The notes beneath the pieces were generated by a model. The model ran no database searches, was not told the origin of the DNA, and saw only the letters and a list, made by a program, of their open reading frames with translations. A DNA stretch of 63,263 bases, the filler included, from Kipferlia bialata (lineage: Eukaryota), in assembly GCA_003568945.1 (NCBI GenBank). It is 5 parts of 5 records of this genome, joined end to end, with 100 filler letters (N's around TTAATTAATTAA, not from the genome) between each part and the next. Parts side by side here need not be neighbours in the genome. Positions count along the whole stretch, not along the records: positions 1 to 22,346 come from BDIP01000295.1; 4 more parts are not named here. The stretch is one strand, 5' to 3'. Made by a program: the position numbers and the translations under genes. Below, in pieces: positions 12,871-63,187 of this stretch (the first letter of the stretch is position 1; each line of letters opens with the position of its first letter).

Positions 12871-15001
12871 AGACCGAGAGAGAGAGAGAGAGGTCCAGGA
12901 CCATGACGTGGTCCTCTAGCCACCTGAGTGTAAGCAAGGAAAGGATATATGAACACATATGAATATATGAATCCAGATATTGACGTAGATATGAGAGACA
13001 GAGAGAGAGAGAGAGAGAGGTCCAGGACCATGTGGTTGTCCTCAAGCCACCCGAGGGTAAGTCGCTTTCTCCCTTCTCAATGTCTGCCCAGGGATCGCAT
13101 AGTAATATACTACGGTTGATGGCTAAATACACCCACCTTGCTCTTCTCTCAAACAGTCTCTCTTTCCTAGATCCTCCATACATATAGCTATACATATACA
13201 CTCATATAATACACCCACCTTGCCCTTCTCTCAAACTCATCTGCTCCAATGCGAGTCTCATAGGCATCCTGACAATAAGGGTGTAGGGAGGGGGAGAGGA
13301 TATTAAGGGTGTAGGGAGAGAGAGAGAGATAGAGAGAGTACATGTTAATACACTATACCTGTGGACTCTGGCAGAGCACCTTGTCGGCCCTTGACCTGAC
13401 AGCCACATAGCCACCCTGAGAATAAGGGTGAAGAGGGACAGAAAGGGTGTTACAAGAGAGTCCAAGGAATCACCGATACTCAAACAATACTATAATTGCT
13501 ACATATATACATATACACAATACCGATATATATAGAGATGTCGATATATACTATGTTACCTTCAACTCCTTGATGACATCCTGGTCCAGTATGACCATGC
13601 CAGGGGTGGACTCTCCATACACAGTGGCCTGGAATGAGGGTGTAGAGGGAGAGAGAGAATATGTGTGTGTGTGTATAGCTCTGACAGCCCTGATACTCTC
13701 TCTATGATGAGTCTCTCCCTCTCTCTCGATAGTATATATATACTCTCTCTATAGTATATGTACTGTACTATACCTCTGATAGTCTTGACACCCTCTCTAT
13801 GATGAGCCTCTCTCTCTCCTGACTCTCTGTCTCAGCAGGCAGGTCACGACACACACCGCCATCCTTGGTGACAACCTGGGCTTTAGGGGTGTAGAGGAAG
13901 AGAGAGAGAGAGACATCCTTGGTGACAACCTGGGTATTAGGGGTGTAGAGGGAGAGAGAGAGAGACATCCTTGGTGACAACCTGGGTATTAAGGGTGTAG
14001 GAGGAGAGAGAGAGACAGAGAGCGAGAGACCCCCTTATCGGAGGAGGGGGGTATACATACACATACAAACCTTGCATCTGGCCGAGTCCTCCTTGGCACT
14101 GGAGGCACCCAGAAGGGCCATATTCCTAGGCATTAGTGTTAGTACATATAAAGGGTATTGTTGTATACATATACCTGCTCATCTGGGCCCTGTCTGCCTT
14201 GGTCTTGACTGTCCTCTCGGCACTATATATATATATATATACATAGTATATAGTATATACATATATACACTGTATACCTACTCATCTGGGCCCTCTCTGC
14301 CTTGGTCTTGACTGTCCTCTCGGCATTATATATACACTATATAAGTCTATATATAGAGTATATCTACCTACTCATCTGAGCCCTGTCTGCCTTGGTCTTG
14401 ACTAGCCTCTCAGCACTATATATATACTATATGTACAGTATATATACACTATATATACACTATATACCTACTCATCTGAGCCCTGTCTGCCTTGGTCTTG
14501 ACAGTCCTCTCGGCACTATACGTACACTATATATATAGTATAGAGTGTGTATATATATATATTGTATATACCTACTCATTTGAGCCCTCTCTGCCTTGGT
14601 CTTCACTGTCCTCTCGGCACTGAGGGTCACACCGTTGTCGGGGTTCACAAGGGGTTCACTGTCAACCTAAAGGTAAATATGTTATCTATACATATATTTT
14701 CTATATAAATATTTTCTATACATATATCTATATATAAATTTCACATATTACGAGTAGTTATGAAGTAGTTATGAATACTATATGCATAGCAATTCACAAG
14801 GGGTTCACTGTCAACCTATGCATTAGGGTGTAGGGGGAGAGAGAAAGAGAGAGCAGAAGTTCACTATCACCCGCTATCGATCTCGAGGTTTGATTAGTAA
14901 CATACCTTGAGTACATCCTCCAGTGTGAGTGCCTTGGGGGCAGAGCCATCGGCACCAAGGTGGACAGTGACATACCTAGAGTGAGTAATATATATGTATA
15001 T

Positions 15002-15038
<37 letters not shown>

Positions 15039-16706
15039 AGTTCATCGGCACCCAGGTGCACGGTGAGAGGCAATATACACTAATATGGATGGGCACTATT
15101 ACATATGGATGAGTTCTCACTCTGATCTGTGTATATCCCTCGTGTACAATTACTCAGACACAAATACTCAGTATATACATATGCATTCATCTATACAGAA
15201 ACACATATAGAGATAGGGTACTCACTCTGATCTGTGTATCTCCCTCTGCCCATTCTCTGTGGACACAACCAGCTTGGAGCTGATGCAGTCCCTTGATGTC
15301 AGAGGAATACACTGGAAGACAATATGCATACTATTATAGAATAATGAATAATAGATATGCACTATTATATTTATATATATATGCTGTGGACACAACCAGC
15401 TTGGAGCTGATGCAGTCCCTTGGAGTCAATGCATATATATATAACATCTTCATACTATAGTAATACAAGCACACTATAATCCCTACTTTACCTTGATATG
15501 ACTGTGGCAGCCTCCCATCTCTCCCCATCGTCCTCCTCTCCCTCTCCCTCTCCATCTCCCTCTCTCATGCTCTTCCCAGGTACCCTGCAGTAGCCTCGCA
15601 GCAGGGCATCCTCACCTGCAACAGCAACAGCTACTCTATCCTGATATAAGGTATAGAGGATAATGATACACACATATATATATGCATATGTATGTCTGTA
15701 TATGTATGTCTGTATATGTATGTCTGTATATGCATGTCTGTATATATCCTCTCAGCATAGCATCTTCGCCTGCAACTGCTACAGCTACTCTATCATGATA
15801 TAAGGTATAGAGGATAATGAAACATATATATATATATATGCATATGTATGTCTGTATATACTCTCAGAATGGCGTCCTCCCCTCCCACAGCGACAGTAAC
15901 CGTGTCGTGGTATTAGTATAATACTGGTTTGATGGTGTACGTCTATACCTGCTCATGCAGACTCTCCCTGACCCAGTCACTGGTGGAGATGGCAGGGACA
16001 GTATATATATGTATACTTGTGTATAGTATATATATATATATATATATAGTATATACCTGTTCATGTAGACTCTCCCTGACCCAGTCACTGGTGGAGATGG
16101 CAGGGACGGGTTATACATATGCATTATATACAGTATATATGAGTATATATACACACATATATATATATATACCTGCTCATGCAGACTCTCCCTGACCCAG
16201 TCACTTGTGGATATGGCAGGGACAGGTGGCTCATTCCCAGTGACACTAGTGTTCAATCTAGAGAGGACCTAATGTAAGTCAAATAGAGAGTGTACTTGGG
16301 GAGAGAGAAATAGTTCACTGTATATATACCTTACTCCTGGGTGCCCTCGACACACTCTTTGACCTCACCACCCCATGGGCAGCAGAGGCAGAGTATACTA
16401 AATACTATATAATATATACTATATACTATACAATATACATATACATGTGTATACCTTGCTACGTGGGGCTCTAGATACACTCTTTGACCTCACCACCCCA
16501 TGGGCAGCAGAGGCAGAGTATATATATACTAAATACTATATACTATATACTATACAATATATATACTAAATCTATACTATTTATATTTAGTGTATATATA
16601 TACCTTACTCCTAGGTGCCCTAGACACACTCTTAGACCTCACCACCCCATGGGCAGCAGAGGCAGCTCTATCCACAGACTGAGAACGACCTGACATTAAG
16701 GGTGTA

Positions 16707-16749
<43 letters not shown>

Positions 16750-17331
16750 GGCAGCCCTATCAACAGACTGAGAACGGCCTGACTATAAGGGTGTAGAGGG
16801 GGGAGAGAGAGAGAGACTTGCTATACCCACCGCGAGACCCTGGTCCATGACAGGTGCCTGCACATATACATACTACTTTCACTATAGTATACCTACCAAC
16901 ATGATATTATGCCATATACTATAGTATATACCTATGACAGCCAGTCCCTGGTCCATGACCGGTGCCTGTGCAGCAATGAGGGACGGGATGGGGTAGGCCT
17001 GTTTTAATAGTGTAGATGTATATATGTAACAATATGTATATATATATAGAGAGAGAGAGTGGGGGGGTAGAGGTGTATAGACGGGATGGGGTAGGCCTGT
17101 GTTAGGAGTGTAGAGAGAGAGAGAGAGAGATGTATGAGTCTGTAAGTGTAAGAAGGCGAGGCACTAAAACCTTTCCACAATATCCTCAATAAAACGAATA
17201 CTAGTAGTACAACGAATATCGCTCATATACAAAATGTACCTGCTGGGATGAAGACAGACCCCTCTTCCTAGCAGCACCCCTGTCAGTAGAGGCAGACCTC
17301 CTGATAATTAGGGTGTAGAGGGGGAGAGAGA

Positions 17332-17363
<32 letters not shown>

Positions 17364-17405
17364 AGCACCCCTGTCAGTGGAGGCAGACCTCCTGACTATA
17401 AGGGT

Positions 17406-17438
<33 letters not shown>

Positions 17439-20400
17439 CACCCCTGTCAGTAGAGGCAGACCTCCTGACAATAGGGGTGTAGAGAGAGAGAGAGAGAGAG
17501 AGAGAAGCACCCCTGTCAGTGGAGGCAGAGCTCCTGACAATAAGGGTGTAGAGGGAGAGAGAGAGAGAAAGAGATAGGAAGAGAGGTACCTTGACACGGA
17601 GTTTGACCGGCCTCTCTTCTGGGAGGCTGCCCTGTCACCCTGATGTTACAATAATAGGGGTGTAGACAGAGAGAGAGAGAGAGAGAGAGAGAGCCTCTCT
17701 TCTGGGAGGCTGCTCTGTCACCNNNNAGAGAGAGAGAGAGAGAGAGAGCCTCTCTTCTGGGAGGCTGCTCTGTCACCCTGACATGAATATAATAGGGGGT
17801 GTAGAGAAAGAGAGAGAGAGAGAGAGAGAGCCTCTCCTCTGGGAGGCTGCCCTGTCACCCTGAAATGAAAAATAGGGGTGTAGACAGAGAGAGAGAGAGA
17901 GAGAGAGAGCCTCTCTCCTGGGAGGCTGCCCTGTCACCCTGAGATGAATATAAGGGTACAGACATATACAGATATATATATATATATAGGCATAATACTA
18001 TCATTGAGAAGACGAATGAAAGAAGGGGTGGAGAGACAGAGAGAGAGAGAGAAATACCTTTGAGAAGACATCTGGCACTTGGAGCTTGACAGAGACATAC
18101 ATATAAATACAAGTATATGAACATATATACAAGTATAATAGAAAATACATATATATATACCTTTGAGAAGACATCTGGCACTTGGAGCTTGACAGCTGGG
18201 CCAAGAGATGGGGCAAGAGAACCTGTTAATAAGGGTGTAGAGAGAGAGAGAGAGACACTTGACAGTTGTGGGGTAAAGGAGCCTAATAATAGGGAAGACG
18301 GTAGAGAGACTCGGTTTACTAGTTGTGGAGGATAGAAAGGGATAGTATACATACCTACACTGGCCCTCCTCTGGTTGACACTGGAACCTGGGATAAGGAA
18401 GTAGAAAGAGAGAGAGAGAGAGAGAGTATATGTTGACACTGAAACATGGAATAAGGGTGTAGAGAGTGAAAGGGAGAGAGAGAGTAGGAGTAACGATGGA
18501 TACCTGGAGAGCGGCGCTTCTCCTTCCTGACAGGCAGGTGCTGGACTGGGGTAGGAAAAAGTATATGAGAAAGGGAAAGATCCTCTCCACATGTGGCAGT
18601 ATTGTCAATATTTGTAAAATACATACATACAATACTGTATATACCTCTCTGTGGACTCTTGTGCTGGGGGTTCCTAGCTAATGCATCGGCCAAAAACTTG
18701 ATAGAGCCTGTAATTAGGGCTATAGAGAGAGAAAGAGAGAGAGAGACGGTATATGATTGTTACAAGGTGATAATTAATATAACACAATGTACAGACTAAT
18801 ATACCCTGTGAGTCCTGGCTTGGGTTGTCTCTCTCTCTCTCCCATCAATATACTATACATACACATATATATGTGTATATATACACTTTACCCTGTGAGT
18901 CCTGGCTTGTGTTGTCAGGGTTGGCAGCCAGTCTGTTGTACCAGGCACCAGACTGAGGGGACTGACAATAAGGGTGTAGAGAGAGAGAGAGACAGAGAGA
19001 GAGACAGTACCTTTCTCTACCCTCTCTGTGTGCTGCTGGATCTCTTACAAAAGGGTGTAGAGAGAGAGAGAGAGTATGTATAGAGAGAGAGAGAGAGAGT
19101 ACCTTTCTCGACCCTCTCTGTGTGCTACTGGACCTCACGACACTCCTAGGGTCCACTACCTTCTCCTGCTTCACCTCATCCTGATAATAAGGGTGCAGAG
19201 GGAGAGAGAACAATAAGGGTGCAGAGGCATATATCAGTCGACGATGACTATCGTGGGATTAATAATGACAATTCCGGTGCAGAGGGAGAGAGAGAGAAGA
19301 GCCTAATAAATATACCTCAGGTGATCCCCTGTCTCTGAGAGATGGTGTCAGTGCTCTTCCACTCTCTCTCACACTATAGATACATATATACAATATATAG
19401 ATAGATAGCTATATTTATATATACCTCAGGTGATCCTCTGTCTCTCAGAGATGGGGTCAGTGCCCTTCCTCTCTCTCCCTCTCTCACTATAGATAGATGT
19501 ATATATATATATATATATACCTCAGGTGATCCTCTGTCTCTGAGAGATGGTGTCAGTGCCCTCCCTACAGTGGGGCCTCTCTTGGACACAGACTTGGACC
19601 TGACCCTAAGGTTAGCATATACATATATATATAGATAGATAGATAGATATACAATAAAAGTTTATATGAAGAGAGAGAGATATACATAGGCCTCTCTTGG
19701 ACCTGACCCTAGTGTTAGACATGTAGAGTATATAGTATCGATACATGGTTATAGCAAGAGAGTGAGATGGCTAAGGGGGAGGGAGAGGGGGTATGTGGGG
19801 GGGGGGGGCAGATCTCAAAAGAGTACACCATACATATACTACACATACCTGTTATTGAAATATGCGGGTGTCTTGCTCTGTGCCACAGCATCTCTGCATA
19901 TATATATACATATACTAGATAGTGACTGAGAGATAGTAAGAGAGTTATATACCAAATGTACACACCTGTTGTTGAAGTATGCGGGTGTCTTGCTCTGAGC
20001 CACTGCGTCTCTGAGACCAGCACGGGACTTGGACCTAAGGTGAGATATATAGATATACGTATATATAGAGAGAGAGAGAAAGAGAGAGAGAAACCAGCAC
20101 GGGACTTGGACCTTGAATTAGAGAGAGGGGGGGAGAGAGGGAGAGGGAGAGAGAGAGAGAGAGTATCTCCGAGACCAGCACGGGACTTGGACCTGGACCT
20201 TGTATTAGAGAAAGAGAGAGATAGAGAGAGAGAGACCGGCACGGGCCATATATAGAAGGAGAGGAAGGAGGGAGAGAGGTAAGGGACTTAACCAGACTGG
20301 GCAAAACTGTAAAGGAAGAGGCGGATCGTGGGGGGGGGGGGGGTATGCAAACGTATCCTGACGCGTATAGGAGTGGACAAGAAGGGGATATAGGAGAGAG

Positions 20401-20975
20401 AGAGAGGAAGAGAAAGAGTGGCATTGATACCGGTACCAAAGAGAGTATACAATTGTTGATAGTATCAACTTGATACACCCCTATAGGATACTCAGACTGG
20501 GGTTATAAAGGTAAACAGACATTGATAGAGAGGAAGAGAATAAGACTGATAGACATTGCATATAATAATTGACACTATACTGAAACAGTACCGGTACCGG
20601 TACCGGTACCGATAATTACAAATTGCCATCAGAGGGGGAATGGGGTTACAACTATAGGAGAGGGAAAGATAATACATAGGGTATGGACAAATAAGTGCAA
20701 GAGAGTAAGAGTAGCCGCCCATACTAGGCACAACATATAACAGGACCTGTACCATTATAATGTAACACGTAGCTCTCGACCAGAAATATACACATATACA
20801 CGTCAATTATGCACCTGTGTGTCGAGCTCCTCAGCTCAGGCAGCACGTCTGGCCTGGGGGCACCTGGCAGACCCTCTCCCCCTCTCTCTCCACTCCTCTC
20901 TCTCACGTGATGCGCCCCATGCCCTAGCAGCATCAGGTCATCACTCGACTCCTCATCCACGCCGTGCCGATCCAT
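4568..20975 (-). CDS. Large multi-exon hypothetical protein with a low-complexity Ser/Arg-rich N-terminus and an acidic C-terminus (could be more than one gene)
   Basis: A chain of minus-strand GT-AG exons, phase-compatible where checked, runs from MDRHGVDEESSDD (ATG 20975) through RSKSRAGLRDAVAQ, KHWRQCLDRLEEYGTAMLSA, GLPILPLLMDEASGDAGTCFLRAIEQ and CLEYLEAADNIRLTMD to ..EEICTPYVPQE* (4568). No family was recognised. Confidence 0.6.
5667..6125 (-). repeat. Tandem array (~100-bp period) of an exon 3' end plus donor: the real exon and 4 echoes
   Basis: The unit encodes PRLSALKGHPLILQR|GTA plus the same intron stretch (ATGCTAATAATACATGCAATTA). Two copies share a 15-nt internal deletion. Confidence 0.85.
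6908..7908 (-). repeat. Echo arrays on both sides of one exon: 6 donor-end copies and 3 acceptor-end copies
   Basis: CCTGCTCTATAGCCCTTAGGAAGCATGTCCCT recurs at ~6910 (degenerate), 6986 (divergent), 7105, 7217, 7332, 7441 and 7556 (real exon). CCTCATCCATCAGG..GGGGAGGCCT recurs at ~7700, 7795 and 7866. Confidence 0.9.
14173..14621 (-). repeat. Five tandem variants of exon end SAERTVKTKA(E/D)RAQMSR|GT
   Basis: ~50-nt copies at ~14173, 14277, 14367, 14466 and 14570 (real exon), separated by TA-rich spacers. Confidence 0.9.
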
Positions 20976-22768: not shown

Positions 22769-24314
22769 ATGCCTCTTCCCCTCTCCCTCAGTGCCTTTGA
22801 GCATGCCTATGACTCATTCATATCACTCGAGAGGATAGAGACAGGTGCTCTCTCTCCCCCCTCTCTCTATGTCCCTCTCTTTGGCTAACAACCTATCCCC
22901 ATCACTCTGTCTATTCTATTCTCTAGAGGGTAGGATATGGTGTGTGCCCTCCGCAATTCCATCTCTGTTTCCGTTCTTTCCCTCTCTCTCATTGGTTCTA
23001 ATTTACTATTGTCCATATCACTCCATATGGACATGTTCACTTCCTTTCAATACAAGAATATCTTCTCTCTCTTCGTCTCTCTGACACAGGTAATCTGAAG
23101 GATGTGAGCTGCTTCGATCCCCTCCGTGTATCAGACAACACCTTTCTGCTCTCCAAGACCCTCTACGCAGTGGAGTATATAGAAGGGAGGCCAACACTGG
23201 TGCAGCGTGGCCCATTTCCATTTCCTGAGGTATACTGATCGATACAGATACATATTCTAATATGGCTGTAACATTAGTTAGTAGTTCGCTTATTTCATAT
23301 GAATATTTGTATATGTATTATATGTTACACTGGTGCAGCGTGGCCCATTTCCATTTCCTGAGGTCTTACTCTGTAGTTACACAAGATGAAGTCAGAAACA
23401 GATTCACATAGTATTCATATAGATACACATGTATTATTTATATACTGACTGGTGTGTGTTCTATACACAATACTGTTGCATTCTGTTACTATTTAGAGTA
23501 TGCCGAGGAATTTCAGTATCATATATATATATGTACTTCTTACACTTAGTGTATTACATTATATGCATTGTCACTATCTCTGACCTCTTAGAGTATGCCG
23601 AGGCGTTTCAGAGAGGCTCTCAGCATAGGCTCTTGCCTGTACTGCGATGCCCCATACCCTCTGCCCAAGGGTGCACAGTATGTGTTACACACAGATACAG
23701 GTAGGGTATTGAATATACTTATGTATATAGATATGAATGTATATACGCCCTATCCCTCTGCCCAAGGGTGCACAGTACGTGTTTCACACAGATACAGGTG
23801 TGTATATATATACATATATATGTATATACATGGATGTATTCTTGTATGTATATCATATACAAGTAGGATACTGAATATTCTACCCAACGGTGCAAAGTCT
23901 GTATTGCACACAGATACAGGTGGGGACATATATGTATATACATAACCATACTAATACACTTTGTGTATAGGATTATTTGGGCCGATACTATGGATATACA
24001 GAAAGGATGTATGTATATATAGTACCTCCCATACAGTATTGAGTGTCCTACTGTCATTAGGATACCATTACATTTAGATGACTCGCTCTTTACTCTTAGG
24101 TGATTGGACCGAGATTGATCCTCCCCCAACCCTGGATGAGGACTGTCGCACCTGCACTCTATCACAGTTTAACGGAAAGGTATTACCTTTTCTTACTCTT
24201 TCTCTTTGTTTTTCAACTATATACATATATATGTGCACCATGACCCCACGTAGCAGCCGTTCCCAGGAGTGGTTTATCTCTCTCCCTCTCTCCCTCTTAG
24301 TATAGGTCTATTAG

Positions 24315-24345
<31 letters not shown>

Positions 24346-24926
24346 ACACATGACCCCAGCTCCTACGCAGCACCCGTTCCCAGGAGTGGTATATCTCTCT
24401 CCCTTCCTTTCTCAGTATACATATAGTATATACTATTGTATTTCTATGTACCATGACACCAGTTGCTTCGAAGCACCCGTTCCCAGGAGTGGTCTATCTC
24501 TCTCTCTTTCTTTCTCAGTATACATATAGTATATATCTGTATATTAGTATATACCATGACCCCAGCTCCTACGTAGCGGCCGNNNNNNNNNNNNNNNNNN
24601 NNNNNNNNNNNNNNNNNNNNNNNNNNNNNNNNNNNNNNNNNNNNNNNNNNNNNNNNNNNNNNNNTCCCTCTCAGTATATATCTGTATATTAGTATATACC
24701 ATGACCCCAGCTCCTACGTTGTCTCTCTCTCTCCCCCTCTCAGTATATGTCTATTAGTATCTATATACATACGAGTGTGTGTGTACCATGACCCCAGCTC
24801 CTACGCAGCAGCCGTTCTCAGGAGTGGTTACTGGACACTGAGACTGAGACATGGGAACAGATACCCAAGCCAAAGGGTCTCTTTGGTGGGTCATGTGCTC
24901 TCTCTCTCTCTATGTATATACCTACA

Positions 24927-28603: not shown

Positions 28604-31600
28604 ATGGAGGAGGAAGGTAAATCAGATACCTGACGTGTGCTATTTATAGTGATAGTATTTATAGTGTTCTAATAGCAGTGGCTCCGCAAACGTGCTGGGG
28701 TGCTGGGTTCAGTGTTTATATACATTCATACATATATACATACACATACCAACAGAAGTAGTTTTTTGACGTCTGACCCCGGCTCTGCCCCCTTCCTCCG
28801 TGTCTACACCTATACCAATTACTATATATATACTATATATATAATATACACACACACTACTATACTATCACCTTATCCCAGCTGTGACCCCTCTCTCCAT
28901 GTTCCATCTTGTACTTATACCAAATACTATATATACTATATACATATACACACACTATACTATACTATGTATGTATGCCTCTCTGCACTGATCCCAGCTG
29001 TGACCCCTCTCTCCATGTTCCATCGACCGAGAAGTAATGTATATATATGGATACCCCTATGCTAATACTATACTCATATTCATATATATACCATAGTATA
29101 TACCCCTTATAACAGCTGTGACCCCTCTTTCCATGTTCACACCTATAATTAATACTATATATACTAAGTACTATATATACATATATATACTATAGTATAC
29201 TATAGTATATATCCCTTATCCCAGCTGTGACCCCTCTCTCCATGTTCCATCGGCACCCAGGAACACAGGTGTGCATATTGCTCTCCTTGGAGTATATACC
29301 TCTCCCCCCCTCTTTCTTCAACGATAGGAACATATATATATGCGCCACATGCTCCATACTCTCCCTGCCCCCCCCTTTTCCCCCCTTCTCTCCATTGAGC
29401 CAATATATCTGGTCATCTTGTATTTGGCATCCTCACCCCCCCCCTCCACCCTCTTCATTCTCCATCATTATTGTGCGTATATCATTCTTTTCACTCCTAC
29501 TCTCAGAAGCCTAATACCAAAGGGTACTTGTTGCCTCAAGCAATTACTACAAAAATGTATGTTCGCTCCCTTACTCTAAAACGTTTGATCCCAGCCCTTC
29601 GACGGCTGTTCACCCCTCACCACATACCCCCTAGGTGAAGGTATGTTCAACGGTGGTTCATGTTCTGATTGTTACTGTATATTGTTGTATTTCAATGATA
29701 CATTGGAGTGTTCATGTATGTATGTGTATATGTATATTACTGGTGTGTGTTTCAAGGAGGTGGATATACATAATGATACCATACGTATTTATCTGATACT
29801 CACCTAGGCATGTTCATGGCCAGGACAGACACACACGATTAACAGTATACACTTATTAATATATTAATGATATATACATATATATATATATATCAGTCCT
29901 ATTCTATATACTCAATAAGTATAGTACTCATCTCAGGCATCTATATATATATTGATTATAATATTTAGTACTATTCTATATATACTCATCTTAGGCATGT
30001 TCATGGCCAGGACAGACACACGCACCAGTCATGGTACCACCTCCTCTCTCTGGCTGTATACACTACAGGCACCAAGGTTAATGTATGCATATCATATTAT
30101 GTACCCTACAGGCACTAAGGTAAATGTATACATATGTATATATATATATGATATGTGATTGTAGTGTAGTAGTGTATTTATACCCTATATGATTGGACAT
30201 ATGTACATATACATGTCTATATATATGTGTGATATGTACACATGCACAGGAGGGTGATACACCTAAGGAATTCCTGATATATACACATACTGTATGCAAG
30301 ATTATTGATTATAGACAGAAAGTGCTAGAGAGAGGTATTCTTCTAACACTTAGTGCACATGAGGGAGAGACACCCAGGCTAGTTGGCACCGATGTCACTC
30401 CAGCCAAGTTCAGAACCCGGGAATGCGGAGACATATTTGTCACAAAGGTCATATATACATATATATCTACATATATAGATACATATATAGATACATTGGA
30501 TATTGATAGAGTTGGTATACCTGAAGATAGTTCCCCTCTATTTCCTTTCCCCATACCGATATTGAACACCGGACGTTTATTTGTCTGACCATTAGGTCAA
30601 CGGAAGGGTGTGTGTTCTTGCATACCTACCCCCCACCCACTTTCTCTTCGTCATGTCATTGGACACACTGGAGTGGCAGGAGAAGTTCTCCCCAGGTACA
30701 TATATGACAGTTGATCTACGAACTAATACATGTCCTGGTATCTTTCTATAACTTAGCTTGGGAGGAGAAGTTCTCCCCAGGTATACTCTATGTCTCCCAC
30801 CATAGACTTTTGTACTCTTACAATTATGTCCTCTGATCTCTCTACACACATAGTGCACTACTCTCTTTACATGACTGTACACGTCCATATATGTGCTGTT
30901 ACCATCACCTGATCCAAGTGGGTGAGAAGGATCCAAAGGGGAGGGACATACCTAGATATGGACGTGGTGCCAGGTAGGCCTCCTAATTTATAAAACTCTA
31001 ATATTCAGTAATTAAATTCTAATATTGAATTAGTAAATCCTAATACTCATCGAATACTGGTCCGTGAGCATCTTTTGAAGCCTCTTGTGAGCTCAATACA
31101 TACTTTGCATGTCTGTATATTATGTGTAAATAGGAAAGTATTATTTGGATCTTGCGCATAGTATCATACTATGATAGTATGTGACATACACCTCGATATT
31201 TGTCGCATTTACCTGACCTTCTAGAGAAATGTGCGGCACTGCCTGTCTAGAGGATAGGCTGGTTGTGATCGACAGTCTCTATACCCATGTGTATGACCCA
31301 GGTATTGGGTGTGTATATGTATACATTGTAACGTGTATATATATACAGTATGAGTTTGTGTGTGTGTATACATTATATATATGTGTGTGTACGGCAGAGA
31401 GTGACCGTTGACTTTGAACAGTCCCATCCGGACCACCCCCACCATACATGTAGTAGATATACCAAATTGTAGAGTAAATATATATATTGTGAATATGTAG
31501 TATATATATATATGTAGTGTATATATATGTATGTGTATACACATATATATTCATGTATTTAATATATGATAGTGTATGTATTTATGGCAGAGAGCGACCA

Positions 31601-34240: not shown

Positions 34241-35305
34241 TCACCAAGGTGGTACTGCCTGTATAGACACACATGGCACGCTGTTCTCGTGTCGTGCATT
34301 GACTCGTAGCGTCGTGTCCCGGGTACCCAGCGCAGCACACCAGTCTAACTGCTCCCCCATGGAGGTGACGCACTCAGGACTCAGCATGAGTGGGTCAATC
34401 CCAACTACAAGTGTCTTGTTGTCGTCAATGCATAGAAGAGTTGTCGGCCCCAAGAAGACTAGCGCGCAGTCTTCGTATATATTCCTCTGGAGTGGCAGTC
34501 TCACCAATGGCACAATGTCAAGGGAAACAGGGTCTCGGAGCCACATATCCAGAGGCTTTCCATCTCCTTCAGTGTGCTCTGTCACCTGTATATGCAGCCG
34601 ACCTAATGGTAGTACTGCCATTGTATCATACGACTGCCACCAGCACCCATGGTACTTGCTCCAGGTCTCAATGTCCACATCGGCTGCCTCCTGTGTACTG
34701 AACAGAGAATCACGGACGTCCACACAATACGCTCTCTCTGATGGAACTTCCTTGGGGCCAATACCCCCATGTCGAGTCCACTGCTCTGTCGGAGCTGACC
34801 AGGTCCACACGCTTTGGTCTCGATCCAGGCGTGAAAATTTACCCTGACTTACAAACAAGTTGTCTCCAACAGAGGAGACAATCGGTTGATCTTGAGGAGG
34901 TGGCTTCACTGCCTCTGGGCGTTCTATGTTGCGCCACTCACCCGTGTCTATGGTGTAGACACACATGTTCCATGCAGTGATGCCGCGCACACTGCGCAGC
35001 CCACGTGCATATGCTACTATATACCCGCCTACACGGTAGAGCTTCACATATACTTTTCGGACATCATCAGGTCCGGAGATAGTGGTCAGTGTTGGGTTGC
35101 CGTCGGAACCAAGAGAGACCAGTCTCCATTGGCGGATATACTCTCTTCTTCCTCCCCTTATCGTCTCTTTCCTGTAGGTTAACATGCCATCTCTGTGGCC
35201 TATTGATACTGCAGAGGGACGCTCTATGAGGCAGTCACCGTCTGGCATCACACTTGGGTAGGTGTCCATACTGGTATACCATGGCATCGTGTGCATTCGA
35301 TTCAT
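34241..35305 (-). CDS. Intronless 354-aa Kelch-like beta-propeller protein
   Basis: This is the longest uninterrupted ORF in the window. Blade motifs include YRVGGYIVAY, VYTIDTGEWRNI, SSVGDNLFV, WTWSAPTEQWT, MWLRDPVS and CALVFLGPTTLLCI. Confidence 0.75.
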   Translation of the reverse strand: MNRMHTMPWYTSMDTYPSVMPDGDCLIERPSAVSIGHRDGMLTYRKETIRGGRREYIRQWRLVSLGSDGNPTLTTISGPDDVRKVYVKLYRVGGYIVAYARGLRSVRGITAWNMCVYTIDTGEWRNIERPEAVKPPPQDQPIVSSVGDNLFVSQGKFSRLDRDQSVWTWSAPTEQWTRHGGIGPKEVPSERAYCVDVRDSLFSTQEAADVDIETWSKYHGCWWQSYDTMAVLPLGRLHIQVTEHTEGDGKPLDMWLRDPVSLDIVPLVRLPLQRNIYEDCALVFLGPTTLLCIDDNKTLVVGIDPLMLSPECVTSMGEQLDWCAALGTRDTTLRVNARHENSVPCVSIQAVPPW

Positions 35306-35582
35306 TGAGCTACAGTCTTTGTGTCAGTTGTACTGATGCAAATGGTATGATTCAGTGCAGTTGCTTATAAGCTCGTGGTGCACGGATGAGAGTAAAGGCG
35401 GCTACTGCGGGTGTTATTGAAAAGTGGACGATGGCCTCAAATATCAGTGCACATGAGACCATCGCGGTTGCAGTTTGCAAATGAGACTCTATATCAGCTA
35501 CAATGTAGTATATGGTGTCATAAACTACTGCAGAGGAAGGATGCCAAACGCATATATTTGGTATTTGGGTAGGAGAGCCGCT

Positions 35583-36570
35583 TCAGTCTGACCCAGTCTC
35601 ATAGTCCTCAACTGAAGCATCATCTCCTTCTTCCTCTCTCTCTCCCTCCTCCTCCTCATTACCACCTTCATCTCCTACACTCTCCCTTCCAAACAGTACA
35701 TATTCCGTCTCAGGCACATCCCCCTCAACAGACACAGGAGTATCAGTCATGGCACTATCCCCCTCTCCCCTCCCTTTCCTCCCCATGGCTGTGTGGGGTG
35801 TGGGTGGCAGTGCTACCTTCAGACCACAGACCTCACTGCGGCAGTAGAAGCACTGGGGTGAGGGGCAGGCTGATATATATATGTATACTCTATTCATATA
35901 CATTCCTCTGTTCAAGTGCATTTTGAACTCTCTCCCTTGCCAGACATGAAGTTTTACATGTGGTCTATGAAGTACCAGCACTTACCTGTCTCTGTCTGTT
36001 CAAGTGCTTGCGACAACAGCACAGACATCCTGAGGGGTCAGCAGTGTAGACACATACATGTGTTTTCAATACGCATTCAATAGTTTGTATGTACACATTT
36101 GTCACAACACCCATACCTCTGTGCCCGCATGGCATGAAGACAGTGGCTCATGTTCTAGACACCTTGTATATATATACATATATATATGTATATATATTTA
36201 AATATATGTGAGTGTGTGAATATACCCCTGTGGCCGCATGGCATGAAGACAGTGTCTGACTCATGATCTAGACACACGGGGCACAGATCCTCATCCTTAG
36301 GCTCTCTCTCTCCCTCCCTCTCACTGGGAGTGGGTACATACTCAGCCTGGGTAGTAGGCCTAGGAACTCCCAGTCTCTCTCTCCTCTCCCTCCGCTTCCT
36401 CTCTTTCTCCCTCTCACTCTCTAGCAGGTATGTAACTCTCTCCCTCTCAAGAATCGAGGCCACCGGGCGGGGTAGAACACTTACGGGTAAGACCCACTTG
36501 AAATGAAATATCAAGTATTGAAAGTCTTTCTAATACTCAGAACGTCACCAGCCAGTGACTACATATGTAT

Positions 36571-36605
<35 letters not shown>

Positions 36606-39600
36606 CATGCTTCAATACCTAGTCACCACCTCCAGGGTAAAGTAATAGAGTGATACCATATAGAGCATACGCACATACATACATATTTGTATATTTATAG
36701 GTATATACATTCATACCTTGTCACCACCTCCAGGGCAGAGTCAGATATCGTGTCTAAGGTGCACAGAGAGTACCTGGTGTTACAAACAACAGTGGCAACT
36801 CAAAGAATGTAATAGAGGGATTTGGTGTCATAACCGGAACGTATCATGTGTATATGAACATACACAACTATGTATTAACACACAACGTACCAAGCCAGCC
36901 CCCTCTGCGACTCTTGGTCTATGTGTCTCCTGGTCTCTCTGCCAGTTGGGGTATCAGCCAATGATGCATCCACAGTCCACATAGTCCTGCCATTGACTTG
37001 ACGGGACCCATAGAGACTATCATTGACTTCCCCTTCTCCTTGTGGAGAATCTGCTTGACGCTTGGCGAGTGGCTCCTGGTCGATGGGCATGTCTCTCTCC
37101 CTCTCTCTCTCCTCGTCTCCCTCTCCTCTAGGGGACATATCTACATCACCCTCTGTGTCTACAGTGTCTATGTCCCCATCTGTGCATATGGCACAAAAGG
37201 GTGCAGCAGGGGTGTCGGCAGGGCGGAGCTGCCGCATTACCATATTCACTGGGGTTAGCAAACAGAATACACACGAGAAGTCACAAGATAATTCAATCAT
37301 TCACACGCATATGTGTAAGGTATCCCCCCTCATTCTGCTTCACCTTCCTCTTCTTCTTCCCTCTCTCCATATATATATTGAATACATATCCCTACCATAT
37401 GGCTGCCCTGCCTCTGACCATGCGAGGGGTAGAGTCAACAGACCCTGGAACTCGGGGGTGTGGACCTAGGGGTCAAGGGAATCTATATACTACTATAAAT
37501 TTGTTACAATGTACATACGAATAATGATGTAACACACTTCAGCGACCCTGGAACTCGGGGGTGTGGACCTAACAGTGAGAATTTATATAGTATATATAGT
37601 ATATAAATTGTAATATATAGAGCAAAATGTAACTGTAACAATGGATGGAGGACATGGAAGTAATCGTGGGTCGGATTATATAGAGTTTGAAGGGGGTATA
37701 GGGCGCAGTGCTATATACCCATAAGAATCAAGTGTGTGTGTAACGTTGTATTCGTATATTGTGTTCTTGCACGATTATATGATAATACTGACCCACCCTG
37801 ACAGGCAGGTCCAGCCCACTAATGACAGCCATCAGCACAAGGCTCTGGCTGGTGTAGCTGATATGAGGAAAACAAACCATACTCACATACCGGAAACTGC
37901 ACTGAATAGATACATACAATGGACAGTGTAGCTGACATGAGGAGATCTCTACATAGTGCCTATGGATACTAAATACATTGCAATCCGAGTACATAGAAAT
38001 GCACTATACTATAGCATATCCATACCCAAAGGAAGACAACAGGAGAGATCGCACGAGGCGGTACTCCGAACGGTCTCTGTCCTCAGAGGGAGATAGAGGG
38101 CGGAGCAGACCTTGAAGGATGAACTCCCGCTGGGCATGGCAGTGTTGCTAGAGTTAGTGTCTAAAGAGACTGTATATAGTTAGTATATAGCTGAACATTT
38201 ATCAATATGATACAACAGATACTTCTAAAGCTATGAAAGGTCACTCCCGCTGGGCATGGCAGTGTTGCTATAGTTAGAATATACATACACAAGACTATAC
38301 TATATTATCACTTCAATTGAATAGTCACTTCAGCGCACTTCCAACATACCCATATTTCCAATAGTAAGTATAGTTATCCTATTATTTCGTGTTGCAGTTA
38401 CCCCCATCTTGTGTGCAAAGTGCTCTGGGACTGGTGTGAATGTGAGCTCTGCTGTCCCGTCCAGTACATGGGACAGGAGGGAGATGGTGATGCGGGCTAG
38501 ATATTCACTAAGGTCAGACTAATGAATTCAGAGATGTAATACTCAATGATAGTGTACTACAATTAGAGAATATAGTGGAACAAGAGGGAGATGGTGATGC
38601 GGGCCAGGTGTTGACTGAGGTAAGATGAGTATAATAACCAGTATGTAATGAAATACAACTATATCAGTACACAGTGATACGGTCTAGTTGTTGACTGAAG
38701 TTAGATGTAATGAGAATCATCCAATGGTAGACTATGGCTGTAACACTTACATAAATACATGTATTGTATGTTCACTCCACTTCATACTTGTACCTTGTTG
38801 GGAATGCCATGAGTGCATAGTAGTAGACGTCACTGAACTGGGGCCACTCGGCAAAGGCAGTGTCCTCAACCTCAGACACATACAGAGAGTGTACAAGCTG
38901 TCGTTAGATTTGAGTAGAAGTCGCAATCTCTACTACAGACATACCTGATCTATGGGTCCGAACTCACACACATACACGTCATCGTATGCCTGCAGGTACC
39001 GGTCTATGTCACTCTCTCTCTCTCTGTCACTCTCGGCATCAGCATCTGCATCCTCACCCCTAGCCCCATAGGCCTGGGGTATGGTGGGGGCAGCCCTGGA
39101 CTGTGCCTCCTAGAACGGTTAGACGTTTCAGACGTTTCAGACGTTATGTACACATCTATGAGGGCATTAGAGGTACTTACCCCGTATACAATGCTCCTTA
39201 TCAGGAGTGACACAGTGGCACTGGCTGCTGCTCTCTCTCTCTGGGAGTCCAGCACTGAGTCCAGGGGTACGTGGGGGGTGAGGTCTCTCTTGGGTCCATC
39301 GTCAGTATCTGCCTCTCTCTCTCTCTCCCTCTGCCGCTCTCTGTCGACCCTTGTGGATTCTGTCTCTGCACTCCCCTGATCAAACATGTGTCTCTCTCTA
39401 TAGGTACCGTTCATGGCTATGTAGGAGAGAGACCTAGCAACCTGGGGTGAAAAGTACATTATGTGAGAACACATCATCCACTGTTGGTACCCCCTCCTAT
39501 ATGTATATATACATACTATATATACGTTGTATACTCATATATACCTGAGCCATGACCCGACTCTGCACCGGGTACTTCCTTCTTCTTTGTATACATAGTA

Positions 39601-57600: not shown

Positions 57601-59550
57601 TGGACCTTGCCGGCACCCTTGCCCACCTCTCCTTCAGACACTGTCTGTTTGAGGGGTGTACTATTACAGGGTGTGAGCAGTCTAGATTCAGAGACTGTGT
57701 GTGGAGTGACTGTACCTTTGTGGCATGCAACTTCAAGAGGTGTGACATGGGGGCATGCCTGATGGAGGGGTGCGACCTCTCCCATAGCAACATGAACCAA
57801 GCAGTGGTGGTGGACACATCTATGGATAGGTGGGGAGGCTATGCCTGACTGCGTCTAGAATTGTATTGACATGCATCTTCGTATATATATATATACCCAC
57901 CCCAGGTGCAGACTGGACCGGTCCTACTGGGACGAGGGGTGCCGGGTATCGGGCCTCTCCCTCTCCCACACCTCTCTCTCTTCCACCACTGTGTCCACCT
58001 TCCAGGGGTGGAGGTTCAAGGAGTGGGACACGTTCTCAGAGACATACCTAGGCCCGGGGTGCAACCTGGCAGGTGAGTCCAGGGTGACATGTATATATAC
58101 AAAGTAATATCGATACCTCTAACAATTTATACCCGATATTTGCGACCCTCACCCCCCAGGCCTAGTCCTCCGCACCAAGAACGGTGTCTCCTATGAGTAC
58201 TGCCCCTTGACAGGACGTGACCTCAAGGGGTCCAGTCTGAGGGGGGCAGACGTCACAGGGATAGACCTGACAGGGTGCAACCTAGAGGGTATGTCACATA
58301 TGTGTGTCACTGCATAGAATGACGAATACATCATATGTTGCCCTGTCACTCCTCACTCCTCAGACTGTGACCTGACCGGGGCAGTGTGTCTCACCCCCAT
58401 CCACCTAGTCCAGGCTGCCTCCATCGCTGGGTGCACCCTGTCTGCAGATGTGGAGGGATGGGACCTCAAGGGGGTGGACATGCAGAGATGTGACCTCAGT
58501 GCAACATCAGGTGTGTTACTACCATATACTACCTCATATATGTGTAGATGCACTGAATAGAGCCATCTCTCACCCAGGCCTGACCTGCACCCATCTGAGG
58601 GAGAGTGGAGGGTGCCAGGGGGTGGTGCTCAAGTACCTGACCCTCAAGGGAGACCTCTCCCACACAGACCTCACAGGGGCAGACCTCAGTGGGGCCAACC
58701 TCTCAGGTGGGAGAGGGCATATTCCTACTCTGCTATGGTGTGTGTGTATGGGTTGTCTCACCGTCAGGGTGTGATCTCACTGGGGCCACTCTCACTGGGT
58801 GCAACCTGGAGGGCACCAACATCACTGCATGTACCATGGAGGATAGCACACTGCCCGCAGACATATCCATGGCAGTGCAGGTACAGGGGATACCATATAT
58901 AACTGGGGTCTATCTATGTATTATGTCCTGCTATGCTACGTGCCTAAAACTCCCCTCACACCAGAACCCTCTCTCCTTCACCTTCACCAAGGTGACTACC
59001 AGTAAGGTGGTACTCAATGAGGCACTAGATACCGCAGAGGCCTACCACGAGTGGAGGGAGACAGCGGTGAAGGGCTCCAACACCATCCGCAACACCAACG
59101 GGCGTGTCAATGTTGTTGTCCCACCTGTCGAGGGCGCTGAGTTCACTCTGACTGGGTCCTTCAACAACAGCAGCAACCAGTGGAAGGCCAACACCCGCTT
59201 CCACTACCCCACTGTCATGTTCCCCTCCACAGGCCACCATGCGGATGCCACGGACAAGGAGGACCTGGTGCTCAAGGGGACGAGGAGGGGAGGGGTCATC
59301 AGGTGGGGGTATAGTATACGAGTATGTGTATATATCTGTCTACTATGTGTCTCTGATGTCAGCATCAGCAACCCCAAGGGAGAGGACGTCGAGGTGCCCT
59401 GCAAGAGAGGCCAGGTAGGATACAGTATGTAGCTAATGCGATATCATACTCTGTATGGTGTTTATATACCTATGTATACTCAACCCCCAGGACTGTGTCA
59501 TCAGACTCTTCCTCAAGCACGGGAACTTCTCCATCCGTGTTGGACACTAG
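54662..59550 (+). CDS. Multi-exon pentapeptide-repeat protein (5'-partial)
   Basis: Short GT-AG introns. The 57570-58880 exons give classic A(D/N)LXX repeats (GRDLKGSSLRGADVTGIDLTGCNLEDCDLTGA; GDLSHTDLTGADLSGANLSGCDLTGATLTGCNLEGTNIT). The gene ends DCVIRLFLKHGNFSIRVGH* at 59550. Confidence 0.85.
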
Positions 59551-60509: not shown

Positions 60510-62827
60510 ACCCCTTCACCACCTCCCCTGTCTCTCTGTACTACGAGACCATCACGGCATTCGTCAGTGCAGAGCTCGATAGGTATATATATATATATAT
60601 ATATGCAATACTATATATGATGTATATACTATGTATATATATGTATATATATCTGTACCGTTGAATACTATGGTGGATCTACTATATATAGTACTAATAT
60701 ATTCATCAATATGTATGTATGATACCATCACGGCATTCGTCAGTACCCAGCTCGATAAGTGTGCATATATGCCACTACCACAGTACTATGTACTGTGTTT
60801 GAATTGTTATACTCACCTCCAGGGATGTGTACCTCTCCCATTGGGCCGGTGGGTTATGCTATATATATACAATGTTCTATGTATATAGTACTATATATGT
60901 AATACTATATGCGATATATACTAACCCTAGGGATGTGTACCTCTCCCACTGGGCCGGTGGCTTCAGGTCAGAGGACCACTATGCACTCCACAACACAGGA
61001 GGTATAAGGGAACCCATATATGTGATATATGTGCTTTCTATGCCATTCCTCATGTCACCACATAATAATTCACATATGGTCACATATGTTGTCACTTACC
61101 CCCAGGCGAGGTGTCCACCTACAGTGCCGTTGAGCTGGCAGCCAGCATCAAGAGGTTCAGCAGGTATAGTGTATCTATATCTATCTATCTATATACATGT
61201 ATGTATATACATTTTCTATATATTTCTACTATCTACATATATATATACGTATATGCTTATCAAGAGGTTCAGCAGGTATAGAGTCTATTGATATGAGTAT
61301 TTGAATACATGTCAAGTAGTGTTAAATTAGTGATACGTGTGCTAATATGTGTATATTGTATATGGAGCTGGCAGCCAGCATAAAGAGGTTCAGTAGGTAT
61401 TGCCCATATGTATTCTCTCTCTCTCTCTCTCTCTCCCTCTCTCCCCCCCTCTACCCCCTCACCACCAGAGTGAGGCACATGCCCTTCCCCTACTTCCTTG
61501 TCTCTCTCTCTCTCTCTCTCTCCCTCTACACCCTTAATGTCAGAGTGAGGCACATGCCCTTCCCCTACTTCCGTGTCTCACTGCCATACATCTGTGAGGG
61601 CATCGACTACCACGACAGGATAGGTACATACAGAGAGATGTATATATATATGTATGTGAGTGTATCAACATAATATGGATATCCCTCCCATACATTTGTG
61701 AGGGCTACGACTACCATGACAGAATAGGTACATATATGTATATTTATATATATATAGAATAGGTATAATATATATATATATAGGATAGGTACATGTATAC
61801 GTATGAATGTTATTTCCTGTCGATATTCGGCTTCTTTTGACTTCAAAATCCTCCATACATATACTAGTATACATACTCTTATCCTTCAGGCAACATCTCG
61901 ATCTCCGTTGTCCACTCCATCAGTATATATGTGTATCATTACTTCATATGGTTTTATGTATGCAATTGTAGTGTATATATTCATTCTCTTACCCATTAGG
62001 CAACATCTCGACCTCCGTTGTTCACTCCATCAGGGGCAAGGAGACATCCCTCTCACTGTCACCAAGGTATCCCGTGCATGTTCTTTCTACCATTTACCAT
62101 ATACAACCTACCAGATGTTTCATATATACCCATGTCACCCTATGTCTAGTAGACATTGTCTACCCTTCACCCCAGGTCCCCCCTCCTCCCCAACTACCGC
62201 ACTGAGTTTGACGTCCATTACAACTACCCCAACCAGCAGCCAGAGGGACCCATGGTGTTCAGGTATATGTATGCATATACTGTCACTTATGGCATTGTTG
62301 AACAGAACATATTCATTCATTGTTCTCTTACCCCCAGGAACCCCTTCAACAACGTGTACAGCGCCAGAGTGCACCTGGCCAGAGAGGTATGGCAAATATA
62401 GAAATCATTTACTAGTAGCTTGTGAACTATTTCAAATGAAAGGATATAATTGTTGTGATGTCATTCCTCAACCCAGGTCGACCCTGTCCTTCTCTACACC
62501 AGGATCAAGACATGCTTCCACCTCCCAGCAGGTACGCTATTATCTCTCTCTTTCCTGATACTGATACTGATACTGATACTCCCAACAGGTATGCTAGTCC
62601 AACCCCCCCCCCCCTCCCCCTCTCTCTATCTCTGTCTGATACTGATCAAGACATGGTTCCACCTCCCAGCAGGTCTACCGAGAGTATGGTACTATCTTCC
62701 TCTCTCTCTCTCCGTATTCAATCTTAGGACCCTTGTCTGCCGAGTTCTCTCTCTCTCTCTCTCCTTCTAGGTCCTTATTCCAGGCGCCCCTATTATCAGA
62801 CCCATGGCCCCCTCCTCTACTGAGTCG

Positions 62828-62872
<45 letters not shown>

Positions 62873-62933
62873 TAATTTCTTACTCTAGGTGCTACTGACA
62901 TTAACTTGATGGCACCCTTCTCCACCGAGTCCC

Positions 62934-62966
<33 letters not shown>

Positions 62967-63187
62967 ACTGCTTACTCTAGGCGCTACTGACATTAACTTG
63001 ATGGCCCCTTTCTCCACTGTGTCCTCTCTCTCTCTCTCTCTCTCTCTCTAGACCCTTACTCTAGGCGCCACTGATATCAACCTCATGGCACCCTTCTCCA
63101 CTGAGTCCTCTCTGGAGCACAGCCACTACTTCCTGGACTACCCCACACACCCCGTGCTGTGTATAGAGAGGGGTAGAACTGTGCCAG
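60510..63187 (+). CDS. RPN1: Ribophorin I / oligosaccharyltransferase subunit OST1 (internal exons; both ends missing)
   Basis: Spliced motifs occur in the expected order: VSLYYE..RDVYLSHWAGGFRSEDHYALHNTG, SLPYICEGIDYHDRIGNISTS, PLLPNYRTEFDVHYNYP, FHLPAGATDINLMAPF, HYFLDYPTHPVLCIE. These match the ribophorin I motifs as recalled (IEVSHWG, YYRDEIGNVSTS, FPLFGGWK..GYN, ILPEGA, YTYLDTFGRPV). Confidence 0.88.

What the first reader, a model, noticed from the sequence alone, without database searches (positions are those of the whole stretch)
14173..14621. Five-variant echo array that looks like an archive of alleles
Four intronic copies plus the real exon end (SAERTVKTKAERAQMSR|GT) all differ. 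The variable sites (ACA/ACT, GTG/GTC, GAG/GAC, GCT/GCC, CAA/CAG, AGT/AGC) reassort between copies like recombining haplotypes. Five distinct versions in gap-free sequence are more than a diploid mis-assembly can supply, which favours repeated capture or conversion events.
Basis: partly seen in the sequence, partly recalled or inferred. Interest (0 to 1): 0.72.

Follow-up and report, generated by a model that had tools for sequence, protein, structure and literature searches.

The report
Intron echoes archive old exon alleles
In this single-celled eukaryote about two in three introns examined carry head-to-tail copies of the neighbouring exon end, skipped in the one transcript checked, that differ from the working exon mostly at protein-neutral positions, so they are likely leftover pieces of other alleles left by recombination, which would be a record of sex and high diversity readable from one genome.

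Summary
Real, and part of a window-wide pattern. Intron 18 of a 48-exon minus-strand gene holds four 48-nt copies of the exon 18 tail, each followed by GT; all five versions differ. DNA contigs carry copy-spacer-copy joints at single-copy depth, with no second haplotype or paralog in exons 19-21, so allele concatenation is unlikely. One spliced RNA contig joins the working tail straight to exon 19. In four genes, 57 of 85 introns hold 120 such echoes (chance 0-2 per 46 introns). Against the working exon, 209 of 317 differences are synonymous: pN/pS 0.16 (95% CI 0.11-0.23), where a copy dead since birth gives 0.5 or more. Echoes that cannot be in-frame exons show the same bias. The copies therefore came from already diverged coding sequence. 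Most likely (0.55): short duplications across splice sites survive because the spare copy is intronic, and recombination between diverged alleles fills or separates them. Allelic origin and the repair route are inferred; no second isolate was found. 'Reassortment' in this array rests on one pair of informative sites. A protein on another contig of the window is Kipferlia bialata. Eight literature searches found no description.

The parts
14572..14666 (-). working exon 18 (95 nt); its last 48 nt, 14572-14619, are the echoed unit
   Evidence: in-frame GT..AG gene model; RNA contig fits this tail only
14468..14515 (-). echo 1: exon tail + GT, preceded by AG; 4 differences from the working tail
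   Evidence: DNA contig geometry echo 1-spacer-exon 18
14368..14415 (-). echo 2: exon tail + GT, preceded by AG; 6 differences, including Thr>Leu
   Evidence: spacer between echo 2 and echo 3 seen inside a DNA contig
14278..14325 (-). echo 3: exon tail + GT, preceded by AA; 3 differences
14175..14222 (-). echo 4: exon tail + GT, preceded by AG; 5 differences
   Evidence: DNA contig 14035-14222 with 0 differences, depth 426
14126..14571 (-). intron 18 (446 nt) holding the four echoes and their TA-rich spacers
   Evidence: removed whole in the RNA contig
14071..14125 (-). exon 19
14793..14815 (-). acceptor-type echo of the head of exon 18 (AG + 23 nt, identical) in intron 17
13914..13981 (-). 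two acceptor-type echoes of the head of exon 20 in intron 19; the RNA contig uses the last acceptor (13875)
4568..20975 (-). host gene A: 48 exons, 1558 aa, no family found; 73 echoes in 31 of 46 introns
   Evidence: no homolog or Pfam hit
35583..43096 (-). gene B (22 exons modelled, 5' end open): 20 echoes in 14 of 21 introns
45997..49403 (+). gene C (11 exons): 15 echoes in 8 of 10 introns
60510..63187 (+). gene D (9 exons modelled, both ends open): 12 echoes in 4 of 8 introns

Best explanation
The array is four intronic copies of an exon tail with its splice donor, skipped in the one transcript checked, and likely left by recombination between diverged alleles of the gene. SHOWN: copies lie head-to-tail; donor-type copies follow the working donor and acceptor-type copies precede the working acceptor; the first donor and last acceptor give the open frame; the differences are mostly synonymous. 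INFERRED step 1: duplications of about 50-120 nt arise often, and only those whose spare copy falls in an intron (or behind the stop codon) survive. INFERRED step 2: the two copies come from different alleles. The route I favour is repair of a break on a diverged homolog: one end invades in the exon, the only alignable part, copies through the splice site into the microsatellite-rich intron and rejoins the other end without homology, so that the incoming allele becomes the working tail and the old tail stays as an echo; later misaligned exchange within the array adds copies of the same length and mosaics. A duplication from the same chromosome followed by frequent crossing-over gives the same signature. 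INFERRED step 3: the population is highly diverse (about 0.17 per synonymous site) and echoes turn over fast, each having aged about 0.03 changes per site since it fell silent. No function is needed: the archive would be a by-product.
For: Array real at single-copy depth (426-438 v 441-451 in flanks), summed depth 4.6-5.5 copies, no other letters in exons 19-21. RNA contig fits only the working tail: 4 mismatches to echo 4 and end at 14224. pN/pS 0.13 in gene A, 0.23 in B+C+D, 0.16 in all; bootstrap upper limits 0.20, 0.35, 0.23. Simulated self-duplication with or without conversion gives 0.63-0.78; only inter-allele capture or frequent crossing-over goes below 0.5 (0.15-0.39). 47 echoes that cannot be in-frame cassettes have ratio 0.13. 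Variants private to an inner echo: 19 of 35 synonymous v 24% expected. Echo-echo pS 0.226, pN 0.071 v working-echo 0.196, 0.043: both rise by about 0.03, as two silent branches against one predict. Ratio rises with distance from the working exon, 0.12, 0.16, 0.23 (not tested for significance). 0 of 18 introns with both types break the donor-then-acceptor order. No trend of pS with distance from the splice site, as capture predicts. 25 of 38 acceptor echoes end at a dinucleotide repeat v 15% background. Metamonads lack NHEJ, and Fornicata lack Rad51A and have two Dmc1 (PMC8516963, passages); Dmc1 stabilises mismatched joints (PMC6719624, abstract).
Against: No second isolate or allele was seen; the DNA run shows one haplotype over exons 19-21 although the species is reported diploid (PMC5874029, passage), so the diverged partner is not in hand. 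The simulation reaches 0.15-0.21 only with very fast turnover (capture 10/N, or crossing-over 50/N), in a small model (N=400, 2 replicates). The spread of divergence fits 'identical or one fixed value' slightly better than a many-allele gamma (AIC 320 v 324-325), which leans to two parental haplotypes; only 6 of 132 shared variable sites have three states. Gene B alone is borderline (ratio 0.29, P 0.05) and a frame-free test outside gene A was weak (39 of 95 spacings, 274 of 5000 shuffles reach it). An in-frame AG lies near the start of 16 of 28 donor echoes v 35% expected. Junction microhomology is short (mean 1.4 and 1.2 nt). Four-gamete evidence is one site pair. RNA evidence is one contig over three introns, and contigs drop rare forms.
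Confidence: 0.55

Rival explanations
1. Two-parent version: a hybrid, or an old asexual diploid with deeply diverged homologs, was later homogenised by conversion; echoes are the ends of conversion tracts and fine mosaics of only two haplotypes.
For: 'Zero + fixed divergence' is the best fit (AIC 320.2); 126 of 132 shared variable sites have two states; one haplotype at the locus now.
Against: Echo-echo divergence equals working-echo divergence; the five versions here have 7 variable third positions in 48 nt and would need several switches per copy; the AIC gap is only about 4 once saturation is modelled.
Confidence: 0.17
2. The diverged source was a paralog or whole-genome duplicate since lost, or conversion from such a copy into the working exons.
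For: Would give coding-constrained differences without high population diversity (inference).
Against: No contig of 80% likeness or more with other letters over exons 19-21; it would have to hold for all four genes modelled and a fifth.
Confidence: 0.08
3. Echoes are kept by selection because they are translated: in-frame mini-exons or swapped exon ends used rarely or in another life stage.
For: Three of the four copies here read AG-48 nt-GT in frame; in-frame AG near 16 of 28 donor echoes v 35% expected.
Against: RNA contig skips them; 47 echoes that cannot be cassettes have the same bias; some echoes carry stops in frame (4 among the differences); an echo behind a stop codon shows the same bias; 1 of 28 donor echoes has an internal AGGT.
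Confidence: 0.08
4. Time series: echoes are frozen snapshots and working exons mutate much faster than introns (for example by error-prone RNA-templated repair), selection removing the amino-acid changes.
For: Would give a ratio below 0.5 without outcrossing (inference); single echoes are the most diverged (pS 0.31).
Against: Variants private to inner echoes are still mostly synonymous (19 of 35); site 31 here is not nested; intron spacers are plainly more diverged than the echoes.
Confidence: 0.07
5. Assembly artefact: haplotypes or strains concatenated by the assembler.
For: Short-read draft in many pieces; three echoes at N gaps are exact 55-nt duplicates and probably are artefacts; the DNA run may be the source of the assembly; no contig spans the whole array; two of the four spacers were not seen in the (cut) tables.
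Against: Spacer-to-mid-exon joints lie inside independent contigs at full depth; one haplotype; contig ends fall exactly where shared 30-mers between copies predict; 93% of sampled 31-mers of 13300-19600 are held while 11.6% straddle echo junctions.
Confidence: 0.04

Closest known systems
Internal (intragenic) tandem duplication across splice sites, Gao and Lynch 2009 (not held; known from its citation in PMC3443670, and from recall)
   Same: Short tandem duplications inside genes that are tolerated because splicing removes the spare copy.
   Different: Here two thirds of introns are affected, no new intron is made, and the spare copies carry a protein-level purifying-selection signature that a dead duplicate cannot have.
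Intron gain by tandem duplication of an AGGT proto-splice site (PMC3443670 passages; PMC2891723 abstract)
   Same: Exon sequence duplicated and one copy intronic.
   Different: Echoes include an existing splice site and lengthen existing introns (median 88 nt with none, 184 with one, 476 with four); 1 of 28 has an internal AGGT.
Tandem duplicated, mutually exclusive exons (Dscam type; listing only; otherwise recalled)
   Same: Array of exon-like copies with synonymous-biased differences.
   Different: Echoes are partial, mostly lack one splice site, and are skipped in the transcript seen.
Silent-cassette conversion systems: trypanosome VSG pseudogenes, chicken pseudo-V segments, Neisseria pilS, Borrelia vls (recalled, no call)
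   Same: Silent partial copies next to an expressed sequence, with mosaic variants.
   Different: Differences here are mostly synonymous, so no diversification of the protein; found in every gene examined, not in one antigen locus.
One-sided invasion / synthesis-dependent strand annealing resolved by end joining; polymerase-theta tandem duplications (mechanism recalled; PMC13031629 listing only)
   Same: Would produce a short tandem duplication whose two copies come from different templates.
   Different: Not known to me as a genome-wide record of allelic diversity; not tested here.
Splice-junction minisatellites such as human F7 intron 7 VNTR, and exon-end copies in a sea-urchin gene (earlier scan note e1-7787398, unchecked)
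   Same: Exon end plus donor repeated into the intron.
   Different: Lower density in that note (about one exon end in six) and no synonymous bias mentioned in the lines shown.

Membership tests
Internal tandem duplication across a splice site | Head-to-tail direct copy next to its source | tested here: met
   73 direct hits v 3 inverted and 0-2 in shifted pairings
Internal tandem duplication across a splice site | Copy includes the splice site and reading frame is preserved | tested here: met
   28 of 35 donor echoes end in GT, 23 of 38 acceptor echoes follow AG; open frame in 4 genes
Internal tandem duplication across a splice site | Spare copy decays neutrally from an identical start (pN/pS 0.5 or more) | tested here: not met
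   0.16, CI 0.11-0.23; simulation 0.63-0.78
Mutually exclusive / cassette exons | Each copy has acceptor and donor in frame | tested here: not met
   26 of 73 could, 47 cannot; 3 of 4 in this array could
Mutually exclusive / cassette exons | Copies appear in mRNA | tested here: not met
   one RNA contig, three introns, none included; rare forms cannot be seen in contigs
Intron gain by AGGT tandem duplication | New intron bounded by duplicated AGGT | tested here: not met
   1 of 28 donor echoes holds AGGT; RNA uses the original sites
Silent-cassette gene conversion (VSG / pseudo-V type) | Donors diversify the protein | tested here: not met
   209 of 317 differences synonymous
Silent-cassette gene conversion (VSG / pseudo-V type) | Ongoing transfer from donor to expressed copy | not testable with these tools
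   needs clones or isolates; one four-gamete pair only
Captured alleles | Echo variants segregate as exon alleles in other isolates | not testable with these tools
   two metagenome scans found no relative; only two runs of one sample listed
Captured alleles | Copies as far from each other as from the working exon at synonymous sites | tested here: met
   0.226 v 0.196
Assembly artefact | Copy junctions absent from reads, or at fractional depth with several haplotypes | tested here: not met
   three of the five joints seen directly, two spacers not listed

The most novel reading that the evidence does not exclude
A genome in which recombination between highly diverged alleles routinely leaves the displaced exon end behind in the intron, so that most introns hold an ordered stack of former alleles: tens of thousands of crossover scars from which sex, population diversity and recombination sites of an intron-rich metamonad can be read in a single genome, and a main driver of its intron length.
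Probability: 0.45. Interest if true: 0.87.

Novelty: new variant of a known kind. Interest (0 to 1): 0.76.

Why it matters
Sexual or parasexual processes have not been observed directly in Metamonada (PMC8516963, passage). If echoes are captured alleles, one genome holds a sample of its population's alleles and a map of past exchanges, which makes sex, diversity and the repair habits of a lineage without NHEJ and Rad51A directly testable. It also poses a splicing question: the first of five near-identical donors and the last of three acceptors are used. It explains intron length here (about 90 nt plus about 100 nt per echo) and warns that gene predictors may call echoes as exons.

Tried and rejected
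No whole genome held, so the pattern was measured only in this window. Host protein: no homolog for exon 30 or exon 33 (weak evidence), no Pfam hit above cut-off for 12 exon pieces, Atlas unreachable. No other isolate in metagenome contigs. No earlier scan notes on this genome or look-alikes. No run on record as RNA was listed; X2 is taken as RNA because one contig is spliced at CT..AC ends. Crossing-over only within the exon tail predicts a divergence gradient: none found. Directional decay (methylation type) rejected: synonymous changes GC>AT 54 v AT>GC 57. Frame-free periodicity outside gene A was weak; I replaced it by hand-built gene models, and the first run had one exon off by a base and two double-counted hits, corrected. 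Recursive splicing through the echoes' YAG|GT ends is not excluded and has no support. Echoes under 24 nt or beside N were dropped for the divergence fits (89 of 120 kept) and under 20 nt for the echo-echo comparison; intron 24 of gene A (N gap) was left out of all counts.

Full report
SETTING. The window is an intron-rich eukaryote in five pieces joined by 100-nt spacers; the finding lies in the first piece (1-22346). A long exon at 50.9-51.4 kb, in the third piece, is 100% identical to Kipferlia bialata KIPB_002245. That the first piece is the same organism is inferred from the shared window and intron style. No whole genome was held.

OBSERVATION. On the minus strand the last 48 nt of an exon (14572-14619) recur four times, at 14468-14515, 14368-14415, 14278-14325 and 14175-14222, each followed by GT and separated by TA-rich spacers, with no N nearby. 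All five versions differ. Seven variable sites are third codon positions (six synonymous, one Glu/Asp) and one copy has a two-base Thr>Leu change. Only two sites are informative and they show all four gametes; the rest are singletons, so reassortment is suggested, not proven.

HOST GENE. A hand-built model of 48 exons (20975-4568) gives 1558 residues and one terminal stop when the first donor and the last acceptor of every array are used; 46 of 47 junctions are GT..AG and the other is an N gap. The protein has no homolog or family in my searches. The array fills intron 18 (446 nt).

IS IT REAL? Two runs of one sample were listed: X1 holds 93% of the sampled 31-mers of 13300-19600, X2 15%. On 13500-14229, X1 has a contig from echo 4 through exon 19 with 0 differences (depth 426); a 552-nt contig whose two pieces, start and end match echo 1-spacer-exon 18 to the base (depth 438; geometry); and a contig holding the spacer between echoes 3 and 2 (depth 428). 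Flanking contigs have depth 441-451, and summed depth over the unit is 4.6-5.5 times that. No other letters appear over exons 19-21 at 80% likeness, so no diverged haplotype or paralog is present there. Limits: X1 may be the source of the assembly, no contig spans the array, the tables are cut and two spacers are not listed, contigs can hide simple SNPs, and the 552-nt contig is listed with 1 other letter where the geometry predicts 5, which I cannot explain. Three other echoes, at N gaps, are exact 55-nt duplicates and probably are artefacts.

IS IT SPLICED IN? One 665-nt X2 contig (depth 155) runs exon 21-20-19 and then one unit. Its 4 mismatches to echo 4 and its end at 14224 fit only the working tail; no second unit is joined. 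It also uses the last of three acceptors of exon 20. This is one contig over three introns; rare isoforms would not show.

THE PATTERN IS GENERAL. Gene A has 73 echoes in 31 of 46 introns; shifted exon-intron pairings give 0-2. With three more genes on three other pieces there are 120 echoes in 57 of 85 introns, and donor-type copies always precede acceptor-type ones (18 of 18 introns with both). A further copy lies behind a stop codon. Introns without echoes have a median of 88 nt and each echo adds about 100. This placement is what survival of in-gene duplications predicts: the spare copy must be outside the mRNA frame.

THE SURPRISE. A dead copy should differ from the working exon at amino-acid-changing sites at least half as often as at synonymous ones; simulations of self-duplication with or without conversion gave 0.63-0.78. 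Observed: 209 synonymous and 108 other differences, pS 0.228, pN 0.037, ratio 0.16 (CI over introns 0.11-0.23); gene A 0.13, B 0.29 (P 0.05 alone), C 0.14, D 0.23. This array alone gives 0.10-0.13, but only P 0.04-0.10 on unique sites. A cruder frame-free test was strong in gene A (61 of 88) and weak elsewhere (39 of 95). Translation does not explain it: 47 echoes that cannot be in-frame cassettes have 0.13, though in-frame AGs are somewhat enriched at donor-echo starts (16 of 28 v 35%). A frozen time series does not explain it: variants private to inner echoes are synonymous in 19 of 35 cases v 24% expected. Echo-echo distances (pS 0.226, pN 0.071) exceed working-echo distances (0.196, 0.043) by about 0.03 each, which I read as about 0.03 of silent ageing per echo on top of an allelic distance near 0.17 synonymous and 0.015 non-synonymous (my arithmetic).

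MECHANISM. Shown: tandem structure, placement, skipping in the one transcript, coding-type divergence. Inferred: the copies come from different functional alleles. Simulations fall below 0.5 only with inter-allele capture or frequent crossing-over, and reach 0.15-0.21 only with fast turnover (small model). I favour break repair on a diverged homolog in which one end invades in the exon, copies past the splice site into the unalignable microsatellite intron and rejoins without homology, leaving the old end as the echo. This fits the lack of a divergence gradient, the equal numbers of both types, junctions at dinucleotide repeats (25 of 38 acceptor echoes), the rise of pN/pS away from the working exon, and a lineage without NHEJ and Rad51A but with two Dmc1 (PMC8516963, passages; PMC6719624, abstract). 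The one-sided-invasion model itself is recalled, not read. Equal-length copies, as here, would come from later unequal exchange. The main rival is a two-parent version (hybrid or diverged homologs later homogenised), slightly favoured by the spread of divergences (AIC 320 v 324) and by few three-state sites (6 of 132). The species is reported diploid from k-mer peaks (PMC5874029, passage), yet shows one haplotype at this locus.

KNOWN OR NEW. In-gene tandem duplication across splice sites is known (PMC3443670, passages; PMC2891723, abstract; Gao and Lynch 2009 not held). I found no description of this density or of the synonymous signature in eight full-text searches (listings only). Word look-ups in the genome paper found no 'tandem' or 'duplicat', nor 'duplicat' in PMC6679479, nor Kipferlia in the Introner survey's main text (PMC9860276). 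I did not look at supplements, and subscription papers are mostly not held. I rate it a new variant of a known kind, of high interest because it may turn one genome into a population sample for a group in which sex has not been seen.

Noticed in passing
window 49479-49675 (-): The end of the last exon of KIPB_002245 (Pfam PF01868), its stop codon and 3' flank are duplicated behind the stop; 11 of 15 differences fall in one codon phase.
   Followed up: partly
window 6202-6311, 12706-12815, 17672-17781: Exact 55-nt duplicates across short N gaps, probably scaffolding artefacts that mimic echoes.
   Followed up: yes
window 6911-7556 (-): Intron 42 of gene A holds six donor echoes and two acceptor echoes; unlike intron 18 the donor copies have almost no synonymous differences (pS 0.01 or less), so probably a recent self-amplification.
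   Followed up: partly
window 5674-6124 (-): Higher-order repeat (periods 108, 197, 305) in which intron sequence is duplicated along with the exon tail.
   Followed up: partly
window 9285 and 9373 (-): The working acceptor appears to be AAG three bases downstream of the CAG used in the echo, a possible splice-site shift by one codon.
   Followed up: no
window 28782-29252 and 24245-24828: Further multi-copy echo arrays on the plus strand in genes I did not model.
   Followed up: no
window 34241-35323 (+), 56067-57762 (+): Long intron-poor ORFs (360, 304, 264 aa) with no echoes detected; 57.5-58.8 kb has pentapeptide-repeat-like reading frames (label from recall).
   Followed up: no
window 51637-52032 (-): Exon of a ribosomal protein S29/uS14-like gene (label from recall).
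   Followed up: no
window 35583-43096 (-), 60510-63187 (+): Gene B ends in RING-like Cys/His motifs; gene D resembles ribophorin I by eye (labels from recall, no Pfam hit for the two D pieces tried).
   Followed up: partly
genome-wide, seen: The CT-rich stretch before acceptors is shared by very many contigs (depth over 500,000 at 13925-13974), i.e. a strongly stereotyped 3' intron end.
   Followed up: no
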